A stretch of DNA of 64,000 nt from an uncultured Rickettsiales bacterium (GTDB lineage Bacteria; Pseudomonadota; Alphaproteobacteria; Rs-D84), in assembly GCA_900546225.1 (NCBI GenBank), contig URBZ01000002.1, positions 78,411 through 142,410 of the forward strand. Direction: 5' to 3'. This document shows, piece after piece, positions 39,435 to 49,515 of the stretch (position 1 is the first letter of the stretch; each line of letters begins with the position of its first letter). The notes beneath the pieces were generated by a model. That model did not search any database, was not told the DNA's origin, and worked only from the letters and a program-made list of their open reading frames with translations. The position numbers and the translations under genes were made by a program.

Positions 39435-41735
39435 TTATATTTTTATACTCAATGCGTTAAAATGCTTTTTGTCTGTACTTTTGATAAAATGGAACAAATC
39501 TGCAATTTCGTCTCGGCCAGCCACATAGCTAAAGTTCTGACATCCGGAAATCGCGCCAACACCATTCGAATGAGAAAACGCATTGGCCACGCCCCATAAA
39601 TAGTGAAATCTATTATTATCATTTTCTGTCAGACAGTTAAACTTTTTCAAATACGAATTTGTATTAGGAATCTTTGCATCCAAGTAAGTTTCTAGTACCC
39701 GTCGAATAAGATTACCTATGCATACGTCTGGGGGTGTTCGTTTATTCTGATAAAATTCATTTAATTTCTGTACAAGATCCAAATATTCAGAAGTACTGTT
39801 TTGTAAGTAATCACTAGCCATTCTAATCTTTGAACCCACTGATGCTATTTTTTGTATTTCAAATATCTTGAAATTATTCTTATCTATATGTTTCATAGCT
39901 TCTCTAATTTTTACAAAAAAATAGAAATTATGTGTCAGCAATATTACTTGCTCACATTTTTTTATAGTGGTAACTATCCAGTCACCTATTTGGAATAGAT
40001 TCTTACTATCCAAGCTAGAAACAGGATCATCAATAACTATTATTGGACTTTCCTTTCCGGCTTTTTTCATCGATTGAATTGGAATGATAAAATACAAAAA
40101 TGCGATAAGAGTTTTCTCACCTTCGCTTAGATTTTTTGCATCAACGAATGTACCATCGTCAAGCTTTCTTTGTATTGTATAAACATTCTCCCTTGGGCCC
40201 TCTCTAAAAGAGATATTATTTAATGCAGATTGTTCCAATGCTTTATTGATCAACATAATAATTTTAGACTTCTCGGCCAACTTACGCTTACAATCCAGTT
40301 TCTGCTTTTCTAAATCACCTAATCTTTGTTTGTCTGTATCCCTATCTTTTGTTTTTTGTTTTATTTTTTCATCCATTATATTTAATGTCTGTGAATTCTT
40401 TTGGATATAAAACAGAACCACTTGCTGCTTATATTTTACTTTTCTACTTTCCAGAGAATCTATAATTGCATTGTGTTGTTGTATTATAACCTCTATCGTC
40501 TTTATCGATTTTATTAAACATTGTAAATTATCATATATCTGATTTTCGTACGTTATAGAATACGTTGTCTCCAAATTAAGTGCTTTTTTTGCAACAGATT
40601 CATCTAATTTTTCTAAGAGTGGTTTCAGCTCTATCAATATGTTATTTATTTGATTCTTTTCTGCAATATACCTATCATACGCACTGTCCCTAGATAATTT
40701 AGAAGCATCCGGCAAAGATATTTCAACTTGTTCTATAAGTTCCCTATTATCTCTCAAGACATCTATTAACGTCCAAAAAGCTTTTTCTTGCATATCAAAA
40801 ACAACATCTTTCTTGACCAACTCTTTTATTTCTTGATAACGCTGCTGCCAGAAATCATCGGCAATCTTTTGATTACAAAACAAACAATTAGAATGATTAC
40901 CCCGGTGCAATGCCAAGCCACTTTCTAACCACTGTTTTATATTCTCTGTTCCAGGATTGGAATTTCTGGATAACGATGTCTGCAAAATATCTATTATCGA
41001 TTTATACGCATCAATATTGAAATCTGCATCAAAGTTTCTTAATTTATTGACTATATTTAATTCTATTTTCGTTTTTATTGGTTCAATAAAAATATCTCTT
41101 GCGTGATTTTTTTCTTCTTCACTAATGCGTTCCTCTTTATCCTGTTGCACACGTTCTAAATCTATCTTTAATTGCTTTTGTGTATACTTCTGCGGGCTAT
41201 CAATATGCAAGCAAATACGTATTTCTTTTGCAACATTACTTAGAAAATCATTTTTTTGTTGTTCTAGCTTTTGCAGCTCTATATTTGACTTTAAGTCCGT
41301 ACCACCACCAACAACAAGGGTTTCAATATCCGCATTGATTTTATTTAGTTTTTCTGTAATTTTTATATTTTGATCACCAATAATAATATCAACTTTGTTT
41401 GCTCGAGATTTTTTTAAGGAAAGATTATTCTCTATAAAATCCGTATTAAAAACTTTTATTTTATCTATCAATGGCCCATCTACTACAGAACGAAAAACCT
41501 TTCTTTTTCCGCCAACTTTGTAACACAACTCGCCTTTAGAAAAATTGTACAGCACGTTATTTTCATTGTCTACGTATTGCATTTGACCACGACTGATACA
41601 TTCAAACATTCGACTAAGAGTTGTTTTCCCAGTGCCATTGTAACCATAAAACAGATTGTATTTTGCTAATTTTACTGTTTCTGACTGCTTACGAAAACTA
41701 CCTATGTTAGAAATCTTTTGAATAGCATCTATCAT
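39435..41735 (-). CDS. RloC/PrrC-family AAA ATPase with coiled-coil insertion (predicted anticodon-nuclease-type abortive-infection protein)
   Basis: 766 aa. Walker A GYNGTGKTT. Long coiled coil with CLFCNQ (CxxC, zinc-hook-like). ABC signature NLSEGEKTLIAFLYF. Walker B IIVIDDPVSSLD. H-loop LLTHNFYF. C-terminal about 160 aa with IRRVLE (RxxxE), then His about 33 aa later in RFHYLW (PrrC-like ACNase spacing). Confidence 0.55.
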   Translation of the reverse strand: MIDAIQKISNIGSFRKQSETVKLAKYNLFYGYNGTGKTTLSRMFECISRGQMQYVDNENNVLYNFSKGELCYKVGGKRKVFRSVVDGPLIDKIKVFNTDFIENNLSLKKSRANKVDIIIGDQNIKITEKLNKINADIETLVVGGGTDLKSNIELQKLEQQKNDFLSNVAKEIRICLHIDSPQKYTQKQLKIDLERVQQDKEERISEEEKNHARDIFIEPIKTKIELNIVNKLRNFDADFNIDAYKSIIDILQTSLSRNSNPGTENIKQWLESGLALHRGNHSNCLFCNQKIADDFWQQRYQEIKELVKKDVVFDMQEKAFWTLIDVLRDNRELIEQVEISLPDASKLSRDSAYDRYIAEKNQINNILIELKPLLEKLDESVAKKALNLETTYSITYENQIYDNLQCLIKSIKTIEVIIQQHNAIIDSLESRKVKYKQQVVLFYIQKNSQTLNIMDEKIKQKTKDRDTDKQRLGDLEKQKLDCKRKLAEKSKIIMLINKALEQSALNNISFREGPRENVYTIQRKLDDGTFVDAKNLSEGEKTLIAFLYFIIPIQSMKKAGKESPIIVIDDPVSSLDSKNLFQIGDWIVTTIKKCEQVILLTHNFYFFVKIREAMKHIDKNNFKIFEIQKIASVGSKIRMASDYLQNSTSEYLDLVQKLNEFYQNKRTPPDVCIGNLIRRVLETYLDAKIPNTNSYLKKFNCLTENDNNRFHYLWGVANAFSHSNGVGAISGCQNFSYVAGRDEIADLFHFIKSTDKKHFNALSIKI

Positions 41736-41752
41736 CGTGTAACTTCTTATGC

Positions 41753-43078
41753 TTATTTTAGATCCTCAAATGCTTTCGCCATTGTCGGGTTATTTCTTGT
41801 CAAACGTTTTATTGATAAATTCTGCGCTTTATCATTAGCCAAACGCAGATTATTTTCAGTCCCGAGTAAGGCATCCTTTATTTTTTGCAAGTGATCTATT
41901 GTCTTATCAATTTCTTCTATAGCCTTCTTGAATTTGTCGCTGGCTGTTTTATAATTCCGACCAAAGCGATCTCTAAACTCATTCATTTCTGCTTCAAAAT
42001 TTGAGACATCGATATTGGCCTGCTTGTATTCTGCAATTTGTTGTTTGTATTGAACAGAATTCAGTGCCGCATTCCGTAACAATGTTATAATTGGAATAAA
42101 ACATTGTGGTCTTACAACATACATTTTTGGATATTTGTGCGACACATCAACAATACCAGCATTATATAATTCATTGTCAGATTCCAGCAACGAAACCAAA
42201 ACAGCATATTCACAATTTTTATCCTTTCGGTCTTTATCAAGTTCTTTGAAAAAATCTTCATTTTTGTGTTTTGTGGCTGTTGTATCCATCTCGTTTTTCA
42301 TTTCAAACATAATGGATATAAATTCCGTTTTTTTATCAACATCTGCATAATCACGAAATATAAAATCGCCCTTACTTCCATTCTTGACTTCGTTGTCTTT
42401 TTCGAAATATGCATTTGGGAATGCTGCAGGCCGCATCCGTTCAAATTCAATATGACAGTGTTGTTCCAATGTCTCTCCTACCATTTTTGTGGACATTTTT
42501 GTTTTCATGTCCTTGTATAGCGCAATTTCGACATCTTTTGCCTTTAATTGTGCATCATATTCACTTTTTAATGTTTGTTGTTTTAATTCAATATCTTGTG
42601 CGGCCGCCTTTACTTCGCCCTGCAAGGCAAGAATTTGCGCGTCTTTTTCAAAAAGCATATCCTTTGATTTACTTAATGCCTTTTCTACTGCAATTACCTT
42701 TTCCTGCTCTGATGCATTTATACGTGCTTTGAATTCGACAATTTGTTCATTCAAACATGCAATAGACTTTGCTTTGTCCGCTTCTATACCCGCAATTTTT
42801 AACTTCATTTCAGCCGCAGCATCGCGCTCTGCCGATGAAATTTTCTCTTTGAGTGTTGCTATTTCTTCTTTTAACGCAGAAATTGATAATTCTTTATCGT
42901 TTTTTGCCTGTTCTTTTAATAAGTCGATTTCACTTTTTGATTGCGCCTTATATTGTTGTAATCGCAACGCAACCTCCTTGTCAAACTCAACATTTTTAAT
43001 TTGACTTACAATCGCTGCATAACCCGATTCATCAATAGTGAATTGCGTATTACATTTCGGACATTTTATCTCGTGCAT
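41753..43078 (-). CDS. DUF2130 family protein (N-terminal zinc ribbon, long coiled coil, C-terminal nuclease-like domain)
   Basis: 441 aa from ATG 43078 (RBS AAGGAGAAATAT). N-terminus MHEIKCPKCNTQFTIDESGYAAIV is typical of DUF2130. 17 nt upstream of the RloC-like gene. Confidence 0.65.
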   Translation of the reverse strand: MHEIKCPKCNTQFTIDESGYAAIVSQIKNVEFDKEVALRLQQYKAQSKSEIDLLKEQAKNDKELSISALKEEIATLKEKISSAERDAAAEMKLKIAGIEADKAKSIACLNEQIVEFKARINASEQEKVIAVEKALSKSKDMLFEKDAQILALQGEVKAAAQDIELKQQTLKSEYDAQLKAKDVEIALYKDMKTKMSTKMVGETLEQHCHIEFERMRPAAFPNAYFEKDNEVKNGSKGDFIFRDYADVDKKTEFISIMFEMKNEMDTTATKHKNEDFFKELDKDRKDKNCEYAVLVSLLESDNELYNAGIVDVSHKYPKMYVVRPQCFIPIITLLRNAALNSVQYKQQIAEYKQANIDVSNFEAEMNEFRDRFGRNYKTASDKFKKAIEEIDKTIDHLQKIKDALLGTENNLRLANDKAQNLSIKRLTRNNPTMAKAFEDLK

Positions 43079-43088
43079 ATATTTCTCC

Positions 43089-43421
43089 TTAAATCTTGGA
43101 CACATCTAGGTCAACATGCGCGACACACTGCTGCTCACATTTGTGTTGACACTGTTCATCTGTGTACCATTGACCATCACGCACAACCAAGCGAGACATT
43201 TTTGCAATTTTAAAGCAACGCCACGACGCAGGTATTTCCGTTGGTATCTGCCCTTTGCTGCTTTCTCCAGCAAACTGATACCCTAGCAACTGTTCTTGGC
43301 CTTGGTCATTCAATCCGATTATATGTGGACACACTTCTCGATGAAATCCGTCATAATCAAAAAACAATTGCTGTTTGTGCTCAATTGCACCCCTAATAAC
43401 CATATAGTTTTCAGACGCCAT
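43089..43421 (-). CDS. small WYL-like domain protein (no HTH)
   Basis: About 110 aa from MASENY (RBS AAGAGGAAAAAGC). QLFFDYDGFHREVCPHIIG...LLGYQF...IPASWRCFKIAKMSRL fits the WYL-fold pattern (R.v.P..l...W.R.FrldRI). Stop is 10 nt before the DUF2130 start. Confidence 0.35.
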   Translation of the reverse strand: MASENYMVIRGAIEHKQQLFFDYDGFHREVCPHIIGLNDQGQEQLLGYQFAGESSKGQIPTEIPASWRCFKIAKMSRLVVRDGQWYTDEQCQHKCEQQCVAHVDLDVSKI

Positions 43422-44021
43422 GCTTTTTCCTCTTGTTTTACAATAAAGAGATAGCACACATTAGGAACAAAAGCAATAACTTATTGTAATTACTGTATTT
43501 TAGGAAATTTTTCCCAATATTTTTGTGATATATTGCTTTTATGTGCAACATAACTGGATATATTGTCGCGCATCACGCGCTTTTTTGCACCAATACAGAG
43601 TATTACAGACCACAATTCAACCACAGGTTGTACAAAGACGAAAATTCAATTTATTTTTTACAAACATCCTAACCATCAGACAAAATTCGCGTGATACGCG
43701 AATTTATGCAAATATTCAATCACCGGTTACACAATGCGTTTTTTATAAAGAAATCAACCAATACTAGAATTTACACCTAATTTTGTACTATATGCAAACT
43801 TTTTTACAACTTTACACATTTATACCATTTAGACAATCGACATCTGAAAACCGCCCTGCAATTCAACCATTGGTTGAATTGTTTATATTTTTCTATCACT
43901 GCTTACAAAAACAGCTGTTTTTTCTACCACAGATTGTATTTTATGACAAAATCAACTTATTGTAGAATACACTGTTCGTTTTTTGAGATTTTACGTAATT
44001 ATCACACAAAAAACATATCTC

Positions 44022-44915
44022 GTTATAGGCTGCTTCTCAAATCGTCTTTGATATAATCATTTTTTCGTTCGCTTTTCGCAACTTACAGTTATAGGTTGCT
44101 TCTCAAATCGTCTTTGATATAATGTGAATTACCAGAAATAGGCAATTTAACCTGTTATAGGTTGCTTCTCAAATCGTCTTTGATATAATTTATATGCTTA
44201 GCATGTGCGAGCGTCTACGGTTATAGGTTGCTTCTCAAATCGTCTTTGATATAATCCAGCATTCGCAACGGTACAAATCAACCCGGTTATAGGTTGCTTC
44301 TCAAATCGTCTTTGATATAATCGAAATATGTAGAACAGAGCACTCGAAGGAGTTATAGGTTGCTTCTCAAATCGTCTTTGATATAATGGCACATCTTTGT
44401 CAACCTGCGCCTGCAAAGTTATAGGTTGCTTCTCAAATCGTCTTTGATATAATGTCAACAGTCGCAATAACATTTCCCATCGTGTTATAGGTTGCTTCTC
44501 AAATCGTCTTTGATATAATAAAAAGGATTAAGCTATGATACTCAGAGATGTTATAGGTTGCTTCTCAAATCGTCTTTGATATAATGTCAACAGTCGCAAT
44601 AACATTTCCCATCGTGTTATAGGTTGCTTCTCAAATCGTCTTTGATATAATAACACAATCCCGGTGTGGTATGTAAACCTGGTTATAGGTTGCTTCTCAA
44701 ATCGTCTTTGATATAATCGAATTCAAAGACCTTGATTGGGCGCATTTGTTATAGGTTGCTTCTCAAATCGTCTTTGATATAATATTCGGGGTTGTACCAC
44801 GTAACACAATTCCGTTATAGGTTGCTTCTCAAATCGTCTTTGATATAATAAACCATTCGAACACATTTACACGTGCAATGTTATAGGTTGCTTCTCAAAT
44901 CGTCTTTGATATAAT
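44022..44915 (+). CRISPR. CRISPR array, 14 x 36-bp repeats (GTTATAGGTTGCTTCTCAAATCGTCTTTGATATAAT), 13 spacers of 30 nt, period 66
   Basis: Repeat starts at 44022, 44088, 44154, 44220, 44286, 44352, 44418, 44484, 44550, 44616, 44682, 44748, 44814, 44880. The first repeat is degenerate (GGC for GGT). Spacers 7 and 9 are identical. Each repeat ends in TTTGATATAAT (extended -10). Confidence 0.95.
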
Positions 44916-44922
44916 AGACACA

Positions 44923-44957
44923 CAAAAACCCACTGATAAAAGTGGGTTTTTGTGTAT
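44923..44957. terminator. bidirectional hairpin terminator between the array and cas2 (CACAAAAACCCACT-GATAAA-AGTGGGTTTTTGTG)
   Basis: 14-bp inverted repeat seen directly in the sequence; symmetric, so functional on both strands. Confidence 0.5.
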
Positions 44958-45018: not shown

Positions 45019-45351
45019 TCAAAACATCAGTAATTGTTGCGAACTGATTTTTTCTGCCGTGGGCGCATCGCCAACCAAAAACAGCATATCTGCGAATTGT
45101 TTTTCCGTGACGGTTAAAACCCTGATTGAACCAGATGGCGGCGTCAAATGTCGCAATCGTTGTAAATGCTTCTCCATTCCGGCCAACCCCTTGACTATTC
45201 GGGAATATACCGAGAATTGCATCATGTAATACCCGTCGTTCAACAAGTCGTTTCTGAAACGCGTAGCATATTTCCGTTCACGCTTTGTGCCAACGGGCAA
45301 ATCAAAGAATACTATTATACGCATAAATTTTTCCTGACGGTTGTACAACAT
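45019..45351 (-). CDS. cas2: CRISPR-associated endoribonuclease Cas2
   Basis: 110 aa; MLYNRQEKFMRIIVFFDLPV...RFRNDLLNDGYYMMQFSVY. Confidence 0.85.
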   Translation of the reverse strand: MLYNRQEKFMRIIVFFDLPVGTKRERKYATRFRNDLLNDGYYMMQFSVYSRIVKGLAGMEKHLQRLRHLTPPSGSIRVLTVTEKQFADMLFLVGDAPTAEKISSQQLLMF

Positions 45352-45352
45352 T

Positions 45353-46267
45353 TTAGTTCTGGGTATTTACTATTTCTGGTGCTGATTTTATAGATGGCAA
45401 TTTCAATGCATCTAAGTTTTTATTACAAAAACATGTTGCCACGGATTCTGCATACAGCGGCATGGCATTCAGCACCGAATGTCGAACACCACCAAAGGCG
45501 CAACTGTGCAATAATACCGACACCAATCGTTGTTTGATATTTGGGGTTAAATGCGCACAACCATCAAAATCAAATGACAGCACAATAAAGTCCACAAATG
45601 GCCGCCACGGTTCAATCATGTCGTCGACCATGCAAAAATTATCAAGTTTGTTACAATGATGTACGCCATAAAAAGGTAACAGACCCGCACCAACCGCGCT
45701 GCGTGCGACACACCCGCGTAATATGGCATAGCCGTAATTCAATGCATGATTTCGTACATCGGCATCATCACTGCGGTTGAAATTTTCCCACAGGGCCGAC
45801 CAATAGATACGAGCCGCAAGCCCCTCTATATTTTTAGTGTCACCAGACGCGACATTTTCAGCCAAAATTTCCAAACGCTTATATGCGGGATTATCACACA
45901 ACTTTAAGATTGCCGATTGATTTCGAATTTTTTGTTTAACAATTTCTTGCCACATACGTTTACGGAATGGCAACGACGATGCAATTTGTGCATGCGCAAT
46001 TTCAGTATATCTGGAATTATTATGAAACGGAAAGAATGCACCATTCGGCAGGTGTGACGCATCACAAGAAAACGCAACCACGCCGTTTTCAGCCAATTCA
46101 GACATCAGCGCAGATGTAATTTGAATCTGGGGATTTTCCAGTATGACAACCGCGATATCTTCTAATGGGATATCTTGGACACCACCGGTGTCACCAGTCC
46201 AGTGCAGTTGCTTGTGCCGAACACAAATCCGACATGGATTTGTCAGGGTCAGAATACGCCAAGACAT
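45353..46267 (-). CDS. cas1: CRISPR-associated endonuclease Cas1 (type II)
   Basis: 304 aa; typical Cas1 beta-sandwich and alpha-helical domain motifs (HALNYGYAILRG...); 1-nt gap to cas2. Confidence 0.9.
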   Translation of the reverse strand: MSWRILTLTNPCRICVRHKQLHWTGDTGGVQDIPLEDIAVVILENPQIQITSALMSELAENGVVAFSCDASHLPNGAFFPFHNNSRYTEIAHAQIASSLPFRKRMWQEIVKQKIRNQSAILKLCDNPAYKRLEILAENVASGDTKNIEGLAARIYWSALWENFNRSDDADVRNHALNYGYAILRGCVARSAVGAGLLPFYGVHHCNKLDNFCMVDDMIEPWRPFVDFIVLSFDFDGCAHLTPNIKQRLVSVLLHSCAFGGVRHSVLNAMPLYAESVATCFCNKNLDALKLPSIKSAPEIVNTQN

Positions 46268-46315: not shown

Positions 46316-49264
46316 CTATTTTCGTTTTACAACCGGCGTGCGCTGTTCTGGCAACTTTATCGGTTTTGGTGTACCCAGTAATGACACAGCAAACTTTTCA
46401 ATGTTTGTGCATTTACCAACAGATTTTTTCACAACCTGTGTCCGATTGTTATCTTGGCGATACAATATGAAGTTTGTGCCATGATCCATTTTGGTGATAT
46501 ATCCTTCGTACACACCATCTGCAGCGGTCAGGCGAACATAATCGTCCTTGTGTAACGAACAGACAAATTCACCATCTGGGACTTTGAAGACATCGTCATC
46601 TTTCCCCTTGGTATCGGTAACAAAAATCGGAACACACACGTATTTGCCATGCGCATTGCGCCAAATATCAAATCGAAACATATCGCCACGAACAGCGCGT
46701 CCATGTCGAATTTCCAGTGATCCTTTGTCGCGATTTTTATTCAGACCACGTTTTGAACGATATGATTTTGGATCTGCGTAAATTGTTTCATCGTGCGCCG
46801 CACCCGTGGCGTTACAACGTGGCGGGCGCGATACAATAATATCGTTCAAGCAGGAGATAACATCAGTACGAAAACCGTTCCATGGTTCTTGGATAGAAGT
46901 TTTCAGTGCGGTATACCATGCCTGACCATATTTTTGAATCAGCGCATATTTGTTTTCAAATCGCGCCGACAGCGTTGACAGGTACTTTACCATACCCTGT
47001 GTCGCACATGCGATTACAATCGCGTCTTGGGCATGATGTTTGTCTGATTCATCACGATTTTTGACCAAGCCCCACTGGTGACGCAGATAGTCCGTCAAAG
47101 AACCAGTACGCACCAATACTCGCTTTTTTATATCATCAGATGCAGGCCAATCGATACCATATTCCAAATATTCCGTGGCGAACTTGGCAATAGTGGCATT
47201 ATCATTCGCGTTACGTTCAATAAAACCGTTTTGTTCGGCATCACACTTGGGTAAATCGGTGTTCGTCAATTTTTTGAACTTTGCAGGATTATGCAAGGCA
47301 CGCGCACGCACCGTCATGTCATAAAATTGTTCAGATGTCAGAAACTCATATGGCGTTTTGCTGCCCTTGCGTTGATTACATTCGTGACAGACCAAAACCC
47401 TGTTGCTCTGCGAATTATCAAGGGAACGCGAATATGGCAAAATATGGTCTATTTCATACGCCCCCCAATCACCAGCAGCCAATACCGCATTACAGTATGG
47501 GCACTTGCCACCCTGCTCCATATACAATTTATACTTAAAGTAATTTTTGCCGTACTCTTTGCGGGCTTCTTCGGTTGCCTGACGATTGCGTTCCTGTTCG
47601 CGATTCATGCGCGCAATATCATCGGGCGAATTTTTTAATTCACGACCGATTTCCAAATGGATTCTGTCGGGCGCGCCAAACCGATAAACCATCGCATTAT
47701 AAACCTTGCGTAATTGGACAAGGGTTCGCTTGGCAACTGGTGATGTAATACGATTACCCAGCAAAGTCCAATTTATCTGGTGCAGATGCCCCGCTGGCGC
47801 GCCGTCGTCGCGATTTATATACGACACGTTTTGTGCCCTGAAATCTTTGTTCAGGCCAGATGCAACCGCTTCGTTATACTTTTTGCCATTCTCCATTTCA
47901 GGAATAATTTTTTGCAATGCAGAGATAGACAACTTGATAAATTCTGAACTGGTGATTTGTGCGATTGCGGCGGCATGTTCTGGCAATATTTCAGACACAG
48001 CGCGTTCAATATTTTCCGGCGTTTTCTGGGTTGCGATGACATCAAATATCTTGTCCATCGTGTCTATATCGGTTGTGTATTTGGCCAGTTTATGCCAACC
48101 CGTAAATGCATAGAATTTCTGACATTCGATTTTCTTGATATCAGGTTCAATCCACACCTTGTTTTCTTTGTCATATATACGGGAATAGTTCAACGTTTTG
48201 AACTGTTTATCATCGTCCCATTTCAACAGGTTACGCACGTCGGCATATTTCAGCCCCGTTTTCTTTTTATATAACTCATCTATAACTGTCTGGGTTTCAG
48301 CAACCGTAAAATCATTTTGGCGACACTTGGTCAATGCGACAAACTTTTGCGCCGTTGGCGATTCCTTGGGCGCGACCGGTTCATTCGTGAACGGACATTT
48401 GCCACGCATTTCCGCAATAGATTTGGCCAATGGCGATGCAGATTCATTAAATTTACGTTGGCGACACGCAACAGCCCACCATTTTTCAAACGCGTCCGAA
48501 AAATCATTACCAAAGTCACGTTGCGCGTGCAAAATCATTTCTGCTTCGCGCTTGATTTCCGAACGCGGAATAGAACTTGAATACGTTGATTGCACTTCTG
48601 TTTTTTGCGTGCCGTCTTTTGCGATTTTGACAACGCTTTTTCTGCCGTTGCGCATCTGAGCGTGTTCGGTGGCATACAGCATTTGGCACATTGTTTGATC
48701 CGGATTTTCACGTTGCAGTTTGGCCAAATTATCTTTGATTGCACCAATGGCTTTTAATTCCTCTTTGGACTCTGCGTCGTCCGCCTTTTCTGATTTTGCA
48801 CCAGCTGGCACAGGGTATGTTATATCATCGTACCCGCGATGCTTTGCCAAATGGTACAAGATGCGTCCTGTTTCACGCGGCGTCAGTTTTCGCGTAAAAG
48901 CGTCAACCGCACGCAGTTGCCAGATGTTTATATCCGTATCACGGTTCAGATAAAAATTATTTTGTCCGTCAGATTTTGGTTCTGGAATATCAATCAGATG
49001 GTATTGACGTAAAATATCGCGAATTTCGCGCATACGCTGTGCACGATGTCTGATTCTGCGACGCGCACCACGCGCCGTGCGACGATCGGCGGCATTTTGT
49101 GCCTGATCAAAACAGCGCACACCCGCACCCACTATTTCACCCACGGGGCGGCTGTCGGGCGCGGACGCATCTGTGGTTGATGCCGTTGGATCTGACATTC
49201 TAACAGCGGCCCAACCGATACTGGCGATACCCAAATCGAATCCAAAAATCAAAGACATGTGCAT
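46316..49264 (-). CDS. cas9: Cas9, compact type II-C
   Basis: 982 aa. RuvC-I IFGFDLGIASIGWA. Arg-rich bridge helix. HNH YEIDHILPYSRSLDNSQSNRVLVCHECNQRKG. RuvC-III HHAQDA. No csn2 or cas4 nearby, so subtype II-C. Confidence 0.95.
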   Translation of the reverse strand: MHMSLIFGFDLGIASIGWAAVRMSDPTASTTDASAPDSRPVGEIVGAGVRCFDQAQNAADRRTARGARRRIRHRAQRMREIRDILRQYHLIDIPEPKSDGQNNFYLNRDTDINIWQLRAVDAFTRKLTPRETGRILYHLAKHRGYDDITYPVPAGAKSEKADDAESKEELKAIGAIKDNLAKLQRENPDQTMCQMLYATEHAQMRNGRKSVVKIAKDGTQKTEVQSTYSSSIPRSEIKREAEMILHAQRDFGNDFSDAFEKWWAVACRQRKFNESASPLAKSIAEMRGKCPFTNEPVAPKESPTAQKFVALTKCRQNDFTVAETQTVIDELYKKKTGLKYADVRNLLKWDDDKQFKTLNYSRIYDKENKVWIEPDIKKIECQKFYAFTGWHKLAKYTTDIDTMDKIFDVIATQKTPENIERAVSEILPEHAAAIAQITSSEFIKLSISALQKIIPEMENGKKYNEAVASGLNKDFRAQNVSYINRDDGAPAGHLHQINWTLLGNRITSPVAKRTLVQLRKVYNAMVYRFGAPDRIHLEIGRELKNSPDDIARMNREQERNRQATEEARKEYGKNYFKYKLYMEQGGKCPYCNAVLAAGDWGAYEIDHILPYSRSLDNSQSNRVLVCHECNQRKGSKTPYEFLTSEQFYDMTVRARALHNPAKFKKLTNTDLPKCDAEQNGFIERNANDNATIAKFATEYLEYGIDWPASDDIKKRVLVRTGSLTDYLRHQWGLVKNRDESDKHHAQDAIVIACATQGMVKYLSTLSARFENKYALIQKYGQAWYTALKTSIQEPWNGFRTDVISCLNDIIVSRPPRCNATGAAHDETIYADPKSYRSKRGLNKNRDKGSLEIRHGRAVRGDMFRFDIWRNAHGKYVCVPIFVTDTKGKDDDVFKVPDGEFVCSLHKDDYVRLTAADGVYEGYITKMDHGTNFILYRQDNNRTQVVKKSVGKCTNIEKFAVSLLGTPKPIKLPEQRTPVVKRK

Positions 49265-49380
49265 TCCTCTTTGTTTTTACCCTTGTATTATGAATATAGA
49301 CCCAACAAGCACAAATTACAACCCGACACCATAAAAACAAAAAACTTGACGTCAGCAATAATCTATCATAGCATAGTGAC

Positions 49381-49503
49381 GTAAGAAATCTTTATTGACG
49401 GACGATTTGAGAAGCAACCGTTTATATAATAAAGAATATTTTCTGTGGGGTTTTACGATTACGTATCCCCTGCGCCGTCCCCCAACGGGGGACGGCTTTT
49501 ATT
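49381..49503 (+). ncRNA. tracrRNA (divergent from cas9)
   Basis: GACGATTTGAGAAGCAACC (49401-49419) is perfectly complementary to repeat positions 7-25. Upstream TTGACG-17-TAGCAT promoter (49346-49374). 3' terminator CCGTCCCCCAACGGGGGACGG + TTTTATTTAT (49475-49505). Confidence 0.7.
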
Positions 49504-49515
49504 TATGGCAAACAC

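What the first reader, a model, noticed from the sequence alone, without database searches (positions are those of the whole stretch)
44022..44915. Type II-C array in which every repeat carries its own extended -10 promoter
Each 36-bp repeat ends in TTTGATATAAT (TGnTATAAT-like), positioned to start transcription in the downstream spacer. This is the repeat-embedded promoter arrangement reported for Neisseria and Campylobacter type II-C systems. crRNAs (spacer + downstream repeat) would be transcribed on the plus strand, opposite to cas9-cas1-cas2. The first repeat in transcription direction is degenerate (T9C), suggesting it is leader-distal, so the cas2-proximal end would be the acquisition end.
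Basis: partly seen in the sequence, partly recalled or inferred. Interest (0 to 1): 0.55.

Follow-up and report, generated by a model that had tools for sequence, protein, structure and literature searches.

The report
CRISPR repeats that carry own promoters
This is an ordinary type II-C CRISPR-Cas9 locus from an uncultured gut alphaproteobacterium, and each of its 14 repeats ends in a near-perfect promoter box, the arrangement already shown experimentally in Neisseria and Campylobacter.

Summary
Window 44022-44915 holds 14 copies of a 36-nt repeat separated by 13 spacers of exactly 30 nt. Every repeat ends in TTTGATATAAT, which contains TGATATAAT, a perfect extended -10 box. Only repeat 1 differs (T9C).

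The reading is supported by sequence analysis only. No transcript data were available.
- **Type.** cas9-cas1-cas2 lie on the minus strand with no csn2 or cas4, so the locus is type II-C.
- **Strand.** A tracrRNA with its own promoter, anti-repeat and terminator lies upstream of cas9 on the plus strand. This puts crRNA transcription on the plus strand.
- **Motif conservation.** Across 44 distinct repeats of this Cas9 clade the middle of the repeat varies. T28, G29 and TATAAT stay nearly invariant, and only position 30, the "n" of TGnTATAAT, is free.
- **Polarity.** The cas-distal repeat is mutated in 24 of 54 arrays and the cas2-proximal repeat in 0 of 54. Sister strains of a related lineage differ by spacers added next to cas2. 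The cas2 side is therefore the acquisition end.

All of this matches published type II-C biology, so this is a new member of a known kind and interest is low. One side observation may be new: a strong, co-varying terminator hairpin abuts the newest repeat in 48 of 61 arrays.

The parts
44022..44915 (+). CRISPR array: 14 repeats of 36 nt and 13 spacers of 30 nt. The crRNA sense is the plus strand.
   Evidence: The strand follows from the tracrRNA orientation.
44049..44915 (+). Fourteen extended -10 boxes TGATATAAT, each occupying the last 9 nt of a repeat. The first is at 44049-44057, then one every 66 nt, and the last is at 44907-44915. The predicted start site is about nt 6-8 of the following spacer. 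Repeat positions 9-14 (TTGCTT) are a weak -35-like element at 16-nt spacing.
   Evidence: Clade-wide conservation profile. The start position is inferred from sigma-70 geometry and from N. meningitidis, where the crRNA 'initiates from the 6th nt of each spacer' (PMC12477760).
44022..44057 (+). Repeat 1, the oldest and 'extra' repeat, carrying T9C. The change creates a C-A mismatch with the anti-repeat.
   Evidence: The repeat:anti-repeat duplex weakens from -35.7 to -31.5 kcal/mol. First repeats are mutated in 24 of 54 related arrays, mostly at positions 1-12.
44880..44915 (+). Repeat 14, the leader-adjacent (newest) repeat and inferred site of spacer integration. Its promoter has no repeat downstream, so it should yield no crRNA.
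   Evidence: The cas2-proximal repeat is never variant (0 of 54). Strain comparison. The N. meningitidis R26 analogy is from PMC12477760.
44918..44957 (.). Bidirectional intrinsic terminator hairpin filling the start of the leader, with an A-tract and a T-tract flanking the CCCAC/GTGGG stem. It should end the cas operon transcript and the run-off from the array promoters.
   Evidence: One search reports it on both strands. It is conserved with compensatory arm changes in related loci and present in 48 of 61 arrays.
45019..45324 (-). cas2 (101 aa as called in identical contigs; the ORF extends to 45351).
45353..46267 (-). cas1, type II (304 aa).
46316..49258 (-). cas9, a compact type II-C enzyme (980 aa; the ORF's first ATG is at 49264). 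The conserved RuvC and HNH motif residues are present (D10, D606/H607, H743/H744/D747).
   Evidence: (invariant columns).
49346..49374 (+). Predicted tracrRNA promoter, TTGACG-17 nt-TAGCAT.
   Evidence: In related loci -10 boxes (TATAAT or TACAAT) sit at the same place upstream of the anti-repeat.
49381..49504 (+). Predicted tracrRNA of about 120 nt. The anti-repeat is at about 49395-49431, followed by a GGGG...CCCC stem and a terminator hairpin at 49474-49496 with TTTTATTT. It is transcribed divergently from cas9.
   Evidence: In one stem pair (alignment columns 73/94) both sides changed in 4 of 12 sequences, and the terminator hairpins differ in sequence but are all followed by T-runs.
43858..43882 (+). 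Terminator-like hairpin with a T-rich tail, about 140 nt upstream of repeat 1. It would insulate the array from outside plus-strand transcription.
   Evidence: This corresponds to the upstream-terminator strategy described for type II-C arrays in PMC12080349.
43956..43991 (+). Possible decayed repeat ('R0') exactly one period upstream of repeat 1. It matches 16 of 36 positions without gaps, and 8 of 11 in the TTTGA.AT region with one indel. Its -10 box is destroyed. This call is weak.
   Evidence: The flank is conserved in L008.

Best explanation
This is a functional type II-C CRISPR-Cas9 locus of an uncultured gut alphaproteobacterium.

**Shown from sequence**
- cas9-cas1-cas2 lie on the minus strand.
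- The 14-repeat array follows cas2 after a terminator hairpin.
- A tracrRNA gene lies upstream of cas9 on the plus strand.

**Inferred by homology and motif**
- RNA polymerase holoenzyme recognises the extended -10 box TGATATAAT formed by the last 9 nt of each repeat. It starts transcription about 6-8 nt into the next spacer on the plus strand.
- Each primary transcript therefore begins with about 23-25 nt of guide and runs into the next repeat.
- That repeat pairs with the tracrRNA anti-repeat and is bound by Cas9. RNase III may trim the 3' side.
- Longer read-through transcripts that cover several units are also expected, as in Neisseria and Campylobacter.

**Supported comparatively**
- New spacers enter at the cas2-proximal repeat.
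- The cas-distal repeat is the oldest and has no spacer of its own. It tolerates mutation (T9C), which weakens pairing of any spacer-less 'extraneous' crRNA with the tracrRNA.

**Inferred from position**
- The hairpin next to the last repeat stops both the cas operon transcript and the run-off from the array promoters.
For: - **Array anatomy and motif:**
- **cas gene identities; no csn2 or cas4:**
- **Strand.** The anti-repeat with promoter and terminator is on the plus strand. The same arrangement is found in about 50 related loci, and -10 boxes and sequence-diverse terminator hairpins recur on that strand in the 25 and 12 sequences examined. On the minus strand the terminator hairpin ends 2 nt from the last repeat, which leaves no room for a leader promoter.
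- **Promoter signature.** In 44 distinct repeats T28 is kept in 42, G29 in 44, T31 in 43, A32 in 44, T33 in 38, A34 in 43, A35 in 40 and T36 in 42. Position 30 is free (information content 0.36 bit). 35 of 44 repeats match TGnTAnAAT. The opposite strand ends in CTATAAC without a TG.
- **Sequence constraint, not pairing.** Positions 9-27 vary (mean 0.90 bit) and the anti-repeat co-varies with them. The 3' block is therefore constrained as primary sequence and not merely as a pairing partner.
- **No shared external promoter.** The cas-distal flanks of lineages with the identical repeat are unrelated.
- **Polarity:**
- **Experimental precedent in homologous repeats.** C. jejuni has a -10 box in the 3' part of each upstream repeat and start sites in the spacers (PMC3656092). 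In N. meningitidis the crRNA initiates at the 6th nt of each spacer from repeat-embedded promoters (PMC12477760, PMC5965381). The general type II-C statement is in PMC12080349.
- **Same motif elsewhere in this genome.** Three of the eight other TGnTATAAT sites in the window sit 1-33 nt upstream of ORF starts on the same strand.
Against: - There is no transcript evidence of any kind for this organism.
[quoted passage not shown] Cas1-Cas2 recognition could therefore contribute to, or fully explain, its invariance. Sequence analysis cannot separate the two.
- In many loci the predicted tracrRNA duplex extends into positions 28-33, so the block is not free of RNA-level roles.
- Sigma-70 promoter preferences of this lineage are unknown. 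The tracrRNA promoter in the window itself has only TAGCAT.
- No protospacer was found for any window spacer, so guide orientation and PAM lack independent confirmation.
- One same-species contig (L081) shares the three cas2-proximal spacers with the window but differs further in. That needs an internal deletion or recombination under the proposed polarity.
Confidence: 0.8

Rival explanations
1. [quoted passage not shown] The array would then be transcribed on the plus strand as one long pre-crRNA from an external promoter upstream of repeat 1, and matured only by tracrRNA and RNase III.
For: The block lies at the repeat end that abuts the leader, and the leader-adjacent repeat is never mutated (0 of 54). 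Repeat termini are partly inverted copies (GTTATAG... and ...TATAAT), as expected for integrase sites. Read-through pre-crRNAs also exist in Neisseria and Campylobacter (PMC5965381, PMC3656092).
Against: No sigma-70-like promoter was found on the plus strand between the upstream hairpin (43858-43882) and repeat 1. The cas-distal flanks of lineages with the identical repeat are unrelated, so no conserved external promoter exists. The two repeat ends are conserved asymmetrically: TG with a free base before TATAAT at the 3' end, but G directly before TATAAC on the other strand. That pattern fits a promoter better than a symmetric integrase site. Homologous repeats have proven promoter activity (PMC3656092, PMC12477760).
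Confidence: 0.12
2. The array is transcribed on the minus strand, in the same direction as cas9-cas1-cas2 and as in type II-A systems. The TATAAT ending would then be incidental.
For: The array lies directly downstream of cas2 on the minus strand, so read-through is geometrically possible. By complementarity alone, the anti-repeat could pair with either strand's transcript.
Against: A strong terminator hairpin sits between cas2 and the array and ends 2 nt from the last repeat. The anti-repeat is followed by tracrRNA-type hairpins and a terminator only on the plus strand. On the minus strand it runs straight into cas9. Degenerate repeats at the cas-distal end and spacer additions at the cas2 end fit the type II-C layout with opposite transcription (PMC12080349).
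Confidence: 0.03
3. The locus is a decaying remnant and the array is no longer expressed or used.
For: No protospacer was found for any spacer. Spacers 7 and 9 are duplicates.
Against: All three cas ORFs are intact, and the conserved RuvC and HNH residues of Cas9 are present. Thirteen of 14 repeats are identical. Strains with the same Cas2 carry entirely different spacer sets (L095, and L081 in part), which indicates ongoing acquisition.
Confidence: 0.05

Closest known systems
Neisseria meningitidis 8013 type II-C CRISPR-Cas9 (Zhang et al. 2013, as summarised in PMC5965381; PMC12477760)
   Same: The locus has cas9-cas1-cas2 only, with 36-nt repeats and 30-nt spacers. An extended -10 box forms the last 9 nt of each repeat (TGCTACAAT there, from my own knowledge; TGATATAAT here). 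The crRNA is transcribed opposite to the cas genes. The leader-adjacent repeat is the last one in transcription order. Among solved structures, Nme1Cas9 (6jdq) is one of the best matches (E 9e-75).
   Different: Cas9 identity to Neisseriaceae loci is only about 30%, and the last ~180 residues have no match in solved structures, so the PAM is unknown. The tracrRNA here lies upstream of cas9 and is divergent from it, which from my own recollection is not the Neisseria position. The -10 box here is a perfect consensus. The host is an uncultured gut alphaproteobacterium. No experimental data exist.
Campylobacter jejuni NCTC11168 minimal type II-C system (Dugar et al. 2013, PMC3656092)
   Same: [quoted passage not shown] RNase III and tracrRNA trim the 3' side. 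The Cas9 is compact, at about 980 aa.
   Different: The repeat sequence and Cas9 are distant (5x2g matches with E 2e-49 over residues 2-539). From my own recollection the tracrRNA there lies next to the array.
Type II-C features that suppress spacer-less 'extraneous' crRNAs (Feussner et al. 2025, PMC12080349)
   Same: The first, oldest repeat carries a mutation within its first 15 nt (T9C) that weakens tracrRNA pairing. A terminator-like hairpin lies upstream of the array. My count of 24 of 54 mutated first repeats, mostly at positions 1-12, reproduces their 60% and 'first 15 nt'.
   Different: That study examined only the upstream (cas-distal) side. The hairpin abutting the newest repeat on the leader side is not discussed there.
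Type II-A arrays such as Streptococcus pyogenes (contrast case)
   Same: Both use Cas9, a tracrRNA, and Cas1-Cas2 for acquisition.
   Different: In type II-A a single leader promoter next to the newest repeat drives one pre-crRNA in the same direction as the cas genes, csn2 is present, and the degenerate repeat is at the transcription-distal end. Here all of these are reversed or absent.

Membership tests
Type II-C CRISPR-Cas | A Cas9 effector gene is present. | tested here: met
   TIGR01865 matches with E 8e-170. The conserved RuvC and HNH residues are invariant in the alignment. The best solved relatives are type II-C Cas9s.
Type II-C CRISPR-Cas | The adaptation module is cas1 and cas2 only, with no csn2 (type II-A) and no cas4 (type II-B). 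| tested here: met
   cas2 ends 103 nt from the array. The called neighbours carry no Csn2 or Cas4 family; they are DUF2130, AAA_13, 23S_rRNA_IVP or unannotated.
Type II-C CRISPR-Cas | A tracrRNA with an anti-repeat complementary to the repeat is present. | tested here: met
   The anti-repeat lies at about 49395-49431 with a duplex energy of -37.7 kcal/mol, against -27 or weaker anywhere else in the window. It has a promoter and a terminator and is conserved in related loci.
Type II-C CRISPR-Cas | The array is transcribed opposite to the cas operon, and new spacers enter at the last repeat in transcription order. | tested here: met
   The strand follows from the tracrRNA orientation. Polarity follows from terminal-repeat degeneracy (24 of 54 against 0 of 54) and from sister-strain arrays. 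Both are indirect, sequence-based tests.
Repeat-embedded crRNA promoters (Neisseria/Campylobacter mode of crRNA biogenesis) | A -10 or extended -10 box at the 3' end of every repeat, oriented toward the next spacer. | tested here: met
   TGATATAAT ends all 14 repeats. The clade-wide profile is TG-n-TATAAT with the n free.
Repeat-embedded crRNA promoters (Neisseria/Campylobacter mode of crRNA biogenesis) | Primary 5'-triphosphate crRNA ends that map inside the spacers. | not testable with these tools
   This needs differential RNA-seq or 5' RACE. No transcript data were accessible.
Repeat-embedded crRNA promoters (Neisseria/Campylobacter mode of crRNA biogenesis) | A single repeat is sufficient to drive transcription, and this depends on the -10 box. 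| not testable with these tools
   This needs a reporter fusion with point mutants.
Repeat-embedded crRNA promoters (Neisseria/Campylobacter mode of crRNA biogenesis) | No dependence on a conserved external leader promoter upstream of the array. | tested here: inconclusive
   No plus-strand promoter was predicted between the upstream hairpin and repeat 1. The cas-distal flanks are unrelated among lineages that share the repeat. However, a consensus scan finding nothing does not prove that no promoter is there.

The most novel reading that the evidence does not exclude
The strong, co-varying hairpin that starts 0-9 nt after the newest repeat in 48 of 61 arrays of this Cas9 clade may be more than a bidirectional terminator. 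It could be a defining structural part of the type II-C leader. In that reading it insulates cas2 from the promoter of the last repeat and also marks the integration site for Cas1-Cas2.
Probability: 0.15. Interest if true: 0.55.

Novelty: new member of a known kind. Interest (0 to 1): 0.22.

Why it matters
The mechanism is already established for type II-C systems, so this case mainly extends its known range. It places the arrangement in a large, uncultured group of gut Alphaproteobacteria and their relatives. It also shows that the TG-n-TATAAT ending is kept across at least 44 diverged repeats while the rest of the repeat drifts.

On the practical side, the locus offers a compact 980-aa Cas9 with a defined repeat and tracrRNA pair and an uncharacterised PAM-interacting end.

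The leader-side hairpin, if it proves functional, would add one element to the still poorly defined type II-C leader.

Tried and rejected
**Protospacer and PAM search, to confirm guide orientation independently**
- 955 spacers from all fetched arrays were compared with all fetched loci and the window. No full-length match was found outside the arrays.
- 109 spacers from the window species and from lineages with the same repeat were compared with 50,697 phage records. Only one spacer of a related lineage (L087, spacer 7) hit anything, namely microvirus replication-initiator genes at 93-96% identity.
- Four exact-pattern scans of IMG/VR found nothing. Three used window spacers and one used a degenerate pattern covering window spacer 12 and its L095 variant.
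- The PAM therefore remains unknown.

**Rfam.** Only sub-threshold chance hits were found on the terminators, and no family covers this tracrRNA.

**The built-in promoter scan.** It requires a -35 hexamer and so does not flag the repeat boxes. I judged the extended -10 box separately.

**Logan contigs of the same species.** They collapse the array to one or two repeats, which is an assembly artefact, so I discarded them for the spacer-polarity comparison.

**RNAalifold on the tracrRNA alignment.** It recovered only the GGGG/CCCC stem because the terminator hairpins do not align. I read those hairpins by eye from the sequences.

**Decay of the cas-distal repeat as proof of promoter selection.** The cas-distal repeat decays at its 5' side while keeping its 3' end. 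I considered using this as evidence for selection on the promoter and rejected it as non-discriminating. Any truncated or decaying boundary repeat keeps its array-proximal part, and minus-strand transcription would predict the same pattern.

**The primary Neisseria paper** (Zhang 2013, PMC3694421) is not held. Its content is cited through PMC5965381 and PMC12477760.

Full report
**Observation**

Window 44022-44915 contains 14 copies of the 36-nt repeat GTTATAGGTTGCTTCTCAAATCGTCTTTGATATAAT. The period is a strict 66 nt, which gives 13 spacers of exactly 30 nt. All 14 repeats end in TTTGATATAAT. The last nine bases, TGATATAAT, match the extended -10 consensus TGnTATAAT at every specified position, and the hexamer ends on the last base of the repeat. 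TGNTATAAT occurs 22 times in the window against 4.4 +/- 2.0 expected, and 14 of these are the repeats. Spacers 7 and 9 are identical.

**Locus anatomy**

Three ORFs lie immediately to the right on the minus strand:
- Cas9 at 46316-49258/49264, 980-982 aa, TIGR01865, E 8e-170
- type II Cas1 at 45353-46267, TIGR03639
- Cas2 at 45019-45324/45351, TIGR01573

Only 103 nt separate cas2 from the array. The genes called on identical or near-identical contigs show no Csn2 or Cas4 family nearby. The locus is therefore type II-C. Cas9 keeps the conserved RuvC and HNH residues. Its best solved relatives are type II-C enzymes, including Nme1Cas9 (6jdq) and CjCas9 (5x2g). These match only as far as about residue 800, so the PAM-interacting end is not informative.

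The nearest sequenced relatives are unnamed proteins from gut metagenomes. The genome scan places the locus in uncultured Alphaproteobacteria ('Rickettsiales') bins from human (Hadza), goat, roe deer and other guts.

**Strand of the crRNAs**

I scanned all 64 kb on both strands for complementarity to the repeat. One outstanding site emerged upstream of cas9 at about 49395-49431, at -37.7 kcal/mol. The next best site scored -27.

On the plus strand this anti-repeat is preceded by TTGACG-17-TAGCAT (49346-49374). It is followed by a GGGG...CCCC stem and a GC-rich hairpin with a T-run (49474-49496 plus TTTTATTT). On the minus strand it would run straight into cas9 with no terminator.

About 50 related loci carry an anti-repeat at the same place and on the same strand relative to cas9. 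In the sequences examined, -10 boxes (TATAAT or TACAAT) lie upstream of it. Downstream are hairpins that differ in sequence but are always GC-rich and followed by T-runs. One pair of the conserved stem (alignment columns 73/94) shows double changes in 4 of 12 sequences.

The tracrRNA is therefore a plus-strand gene divergent from cas9, and the crRNA that pairs with it must also be plus-strand. In addition, the hairpin at 44918-44957 ends two bases from the last repeat, which leaves no room for a minus-strand leader promoter.

**Is the repeat ending a promoter?**

I extracted arrays from 60 related loci and obtained 44 distinct 36-nt repeats in crRNA sense.

| Repeat positions | Mean information content | Behaviour |
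|---|---|---|
| 1-8 | 1.54 bit | highly conserved |
| 9-27 | 0.90 bit | varies, and the anti-repeat changes with it |
| 28-36 | 1.59 bit | nearly invariant apart from position 30 |

Within the last block the counts out of 44 are T28 42, G29 44, T31 43, A32 44, T33 38, A34 43, A35 40 and T36 42. Position 30 is the single free position (0.36 bit). That is the profile of TG-n-TATAAT. 35 of 44 repeats match TGnTAnAAT.

The opposite strand ends in CTATAAC, with no TG and a C at the critical last position. The two repeat termini are partial inverted copies, but only the plus-strand one looks like a promoter.

The set includes Neisseria, Eikenella, Haemophilus, Actinobacillus and Campylobacterales loci, so the window repeat is homologous to repeats in which the promoter has been demonstrated. 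[quoted passage not shown] Further indirect support:
- Lineages that share the identical repeat have unrelated cas-distal flanks, so they cannot share an external promoter.
- No plus-strand promoter was predicted between the upstream hairpin and repeat 1.
- Three of the eight non-array TGnTATAAT sites in the window lie 1-33 nt upstream of ORF starts on the same strand.

The caveat is real. [quoted passage not shown] Conservation alone therefore cannot prove promoter function.

**Polarity**

- **Terminal repeats.** In 54 non-redundant arrays the cas-distal repeat differs from the consensus in 24, and the cas2-proximal repeat in none. Inner repeats show 9 mismatches in 854 copies. The mismatches in the cas-distal repeat cluster at positions 1-12.
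- **Sister strains.** Nine loci from assemblies of a related lineage carry the same repeat (Cas9 64% identical to the window's). Their arrays read 1-20,21 in one group and 5-10,13-20,22,23 in another, and one strain has 5-10,13-20,22,23,25. The differing and extra spacers are all next to cas2. Acquisition at the cas2 side needs four acquisitions and two deletions. The opposite polarity needs four acquisitions and four deletions.
- **Window species.** The evidence here is thin. Logan contigs collapse the array. L095 has entirely different spacers. L081, whose contig ends inside the array, shares the three cas2-proximal spacers with the window and differs further in. That pattern is compatible with one internal deletion or with recombination, but on its own it would have suggested the opposite polarity. 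I record it as unresolved.

**Features around the oldest repeat**

T9C changes a base that pairs with the anti-repeat and lowers the duplex from -35.7 to -31.5 kcal/mol. A terminator-like hairpin lies about 140 nt upstream at 43858-43882. Both correspond to strategies proposed to suppress the spacer-less 'extraneous' crRNA in type II-C systems (PMC12080349).

A possible further decayed repeat lies one period upstream at 43956-43991, but the match is weak at 16 of 36.

**Side observation on the leader**

The 50 nt that follow the cas2-proximal repeat fold strongly in 48 of 61 distinct arrays, with MFE at or below -12 kcal/mol and a median z of -5.7 against shuffles. The stem begins 0-9 nt after the repeat. 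Only 2 of 58 cas-distal flanks fold that well.

In the window the hairpin is ACACAAAAACCCAC-TGATAA-AAGTGGGTTTTTGTGT and was reported as a terminator on both strands. The arms co-vary between lineages: CCCAC/GTGGG, CCCGC/GCGGG, ACCGC/GCGGT and CCTGTTG/CAACAGG.

Since the last repeat also carries a promoter pointing at cas2, a terminator here makes functional sense. The paper that surveyed type II-C flanks looked only at the other side. I could not establish whether this hairpin has been described elsewhere.

**What failed**

No protospacer was found for any window spacer in the fetched loci, in the phage records, or in four IMG/VR scans. The PAM and an independent check of guide orientation are therefore missing. 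Rfam has no model for this tracrRNA.

**Verdict**

The arrangement is the standard type II-C one, so this is a new member of a known kind.

Promoter activity in this organism remains inferred. I put the probability at about 0.8 that primary crRNA 5' ends map inside the spacers on the plus strand.

Noticed in passing
window 44918-44957; the same position in L001-L079 arrays: A strong hairpin with an A-tract and a T-tract, acting as a bidirectional terminator, starts 0-9 nt after the cas2-proximal (newest) repeat in 48 of 61 distinct arrays. Only 2 of 58 cas-distal flanks fold as well. The arms co-vary between lineages and the loop often begins (C/T)TGA. It may belong to the type II-C leader.
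   Followed up: partly
window 44454-44483 and 44586-44615: Spacers 7 and 9 are identical (GTCAACAGTCGCAATAACATTTCCCATCGT). Internal spacer duplications, including a 9-spacer block in L043, occur in several related arrays. They could be real recombination events or assembly artefacts.
   Followed up: partly
window 44784-44813; L095 array spacers 4 and 8: Window spacer 12 (ATTCGGGGTTGTACCACGTAACACAATTCC) and an L095 spacer (ATTTGGAGTTGTACCACGTAATACAATTCC) differ at 4 positions. Two strains appear to have sampled the same site of related mobile elements independently. No target was found in IMG/VR.
   Followed up: partly
L081 (GCA_900771925.1 contig), positions 28-460 in crRNA sense: This same-species contig shares the window's three cas2-proximal spacers but has different spacers further in. 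That is the reverse of the pattern expected for acquisition at the cas2 end, unless an internal deletion or recombination occurred. The contig ends inside the array.
   Followed up: partly
L087 spacer 7 (TACGACCATACGGCGGACGTTTACCTGAA): This is the only spacer among the 109 tested with a phage-database match. It hits replication-initiator genes of two gut microviruses (MN379645.1 and OM869494.1) at 93-96% identity over 27-29 nt.
   Followed up: no
Anti-repeats in the window (about 49425-49431) and in nearly all related loci: The anti-repeat ends in TATAAT or TACAAT where perfect complementarity would give TATAAC. The first repeat base G therefore forms a G-U pair with the tracrRNA in essentially every locus.
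   Followed up: no
window repeat positions 9-14 (for example 44096-44101): TTGCTT lies 16 nt upstream of TATAAT and is a weak -35-like element (TTG matches). The T9C change in repeat 1 alters its first T. The element is not conserved across the clade.
   Followed up: no
window 39435-43457 (minus strand): The genes next to the cas-distal end of the array encode a 110-aa protein with no family, a DUF2130 protein and an AAA_13/AAA_21 ATPase (family assignments). This may be another defence module.
   Followed up: no
window 43938-43966 (minus strand): A promoter-like site (TCTACA-17-TAAAAT) points away from the array at its cas-distal end, and the flank is conserved in L008. In N. meningitidis a small RNA (NMnc0040) is transcribed from the equivalent place, in the direction opposite to the array (PMC5449619).
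   Followed up: no
L008 (CAVGNU010000026.1); also L024, L025, L040: Contigs that carry this alphaproteobacterial-type locus are labelled Bacteroides fragilis, Lactobacillales, Lachnospiraceae or Lactobacillaceae bins. This is probably mis-binning.
   Followed up: no
Logan contigs L080, L082, L084, L094, L096-L099, L101: Arrays in these contigs are collapsed to one or two repeats joined directly to both flanks. This artefact would mislead any spacer comparison.
   Followed up: yes
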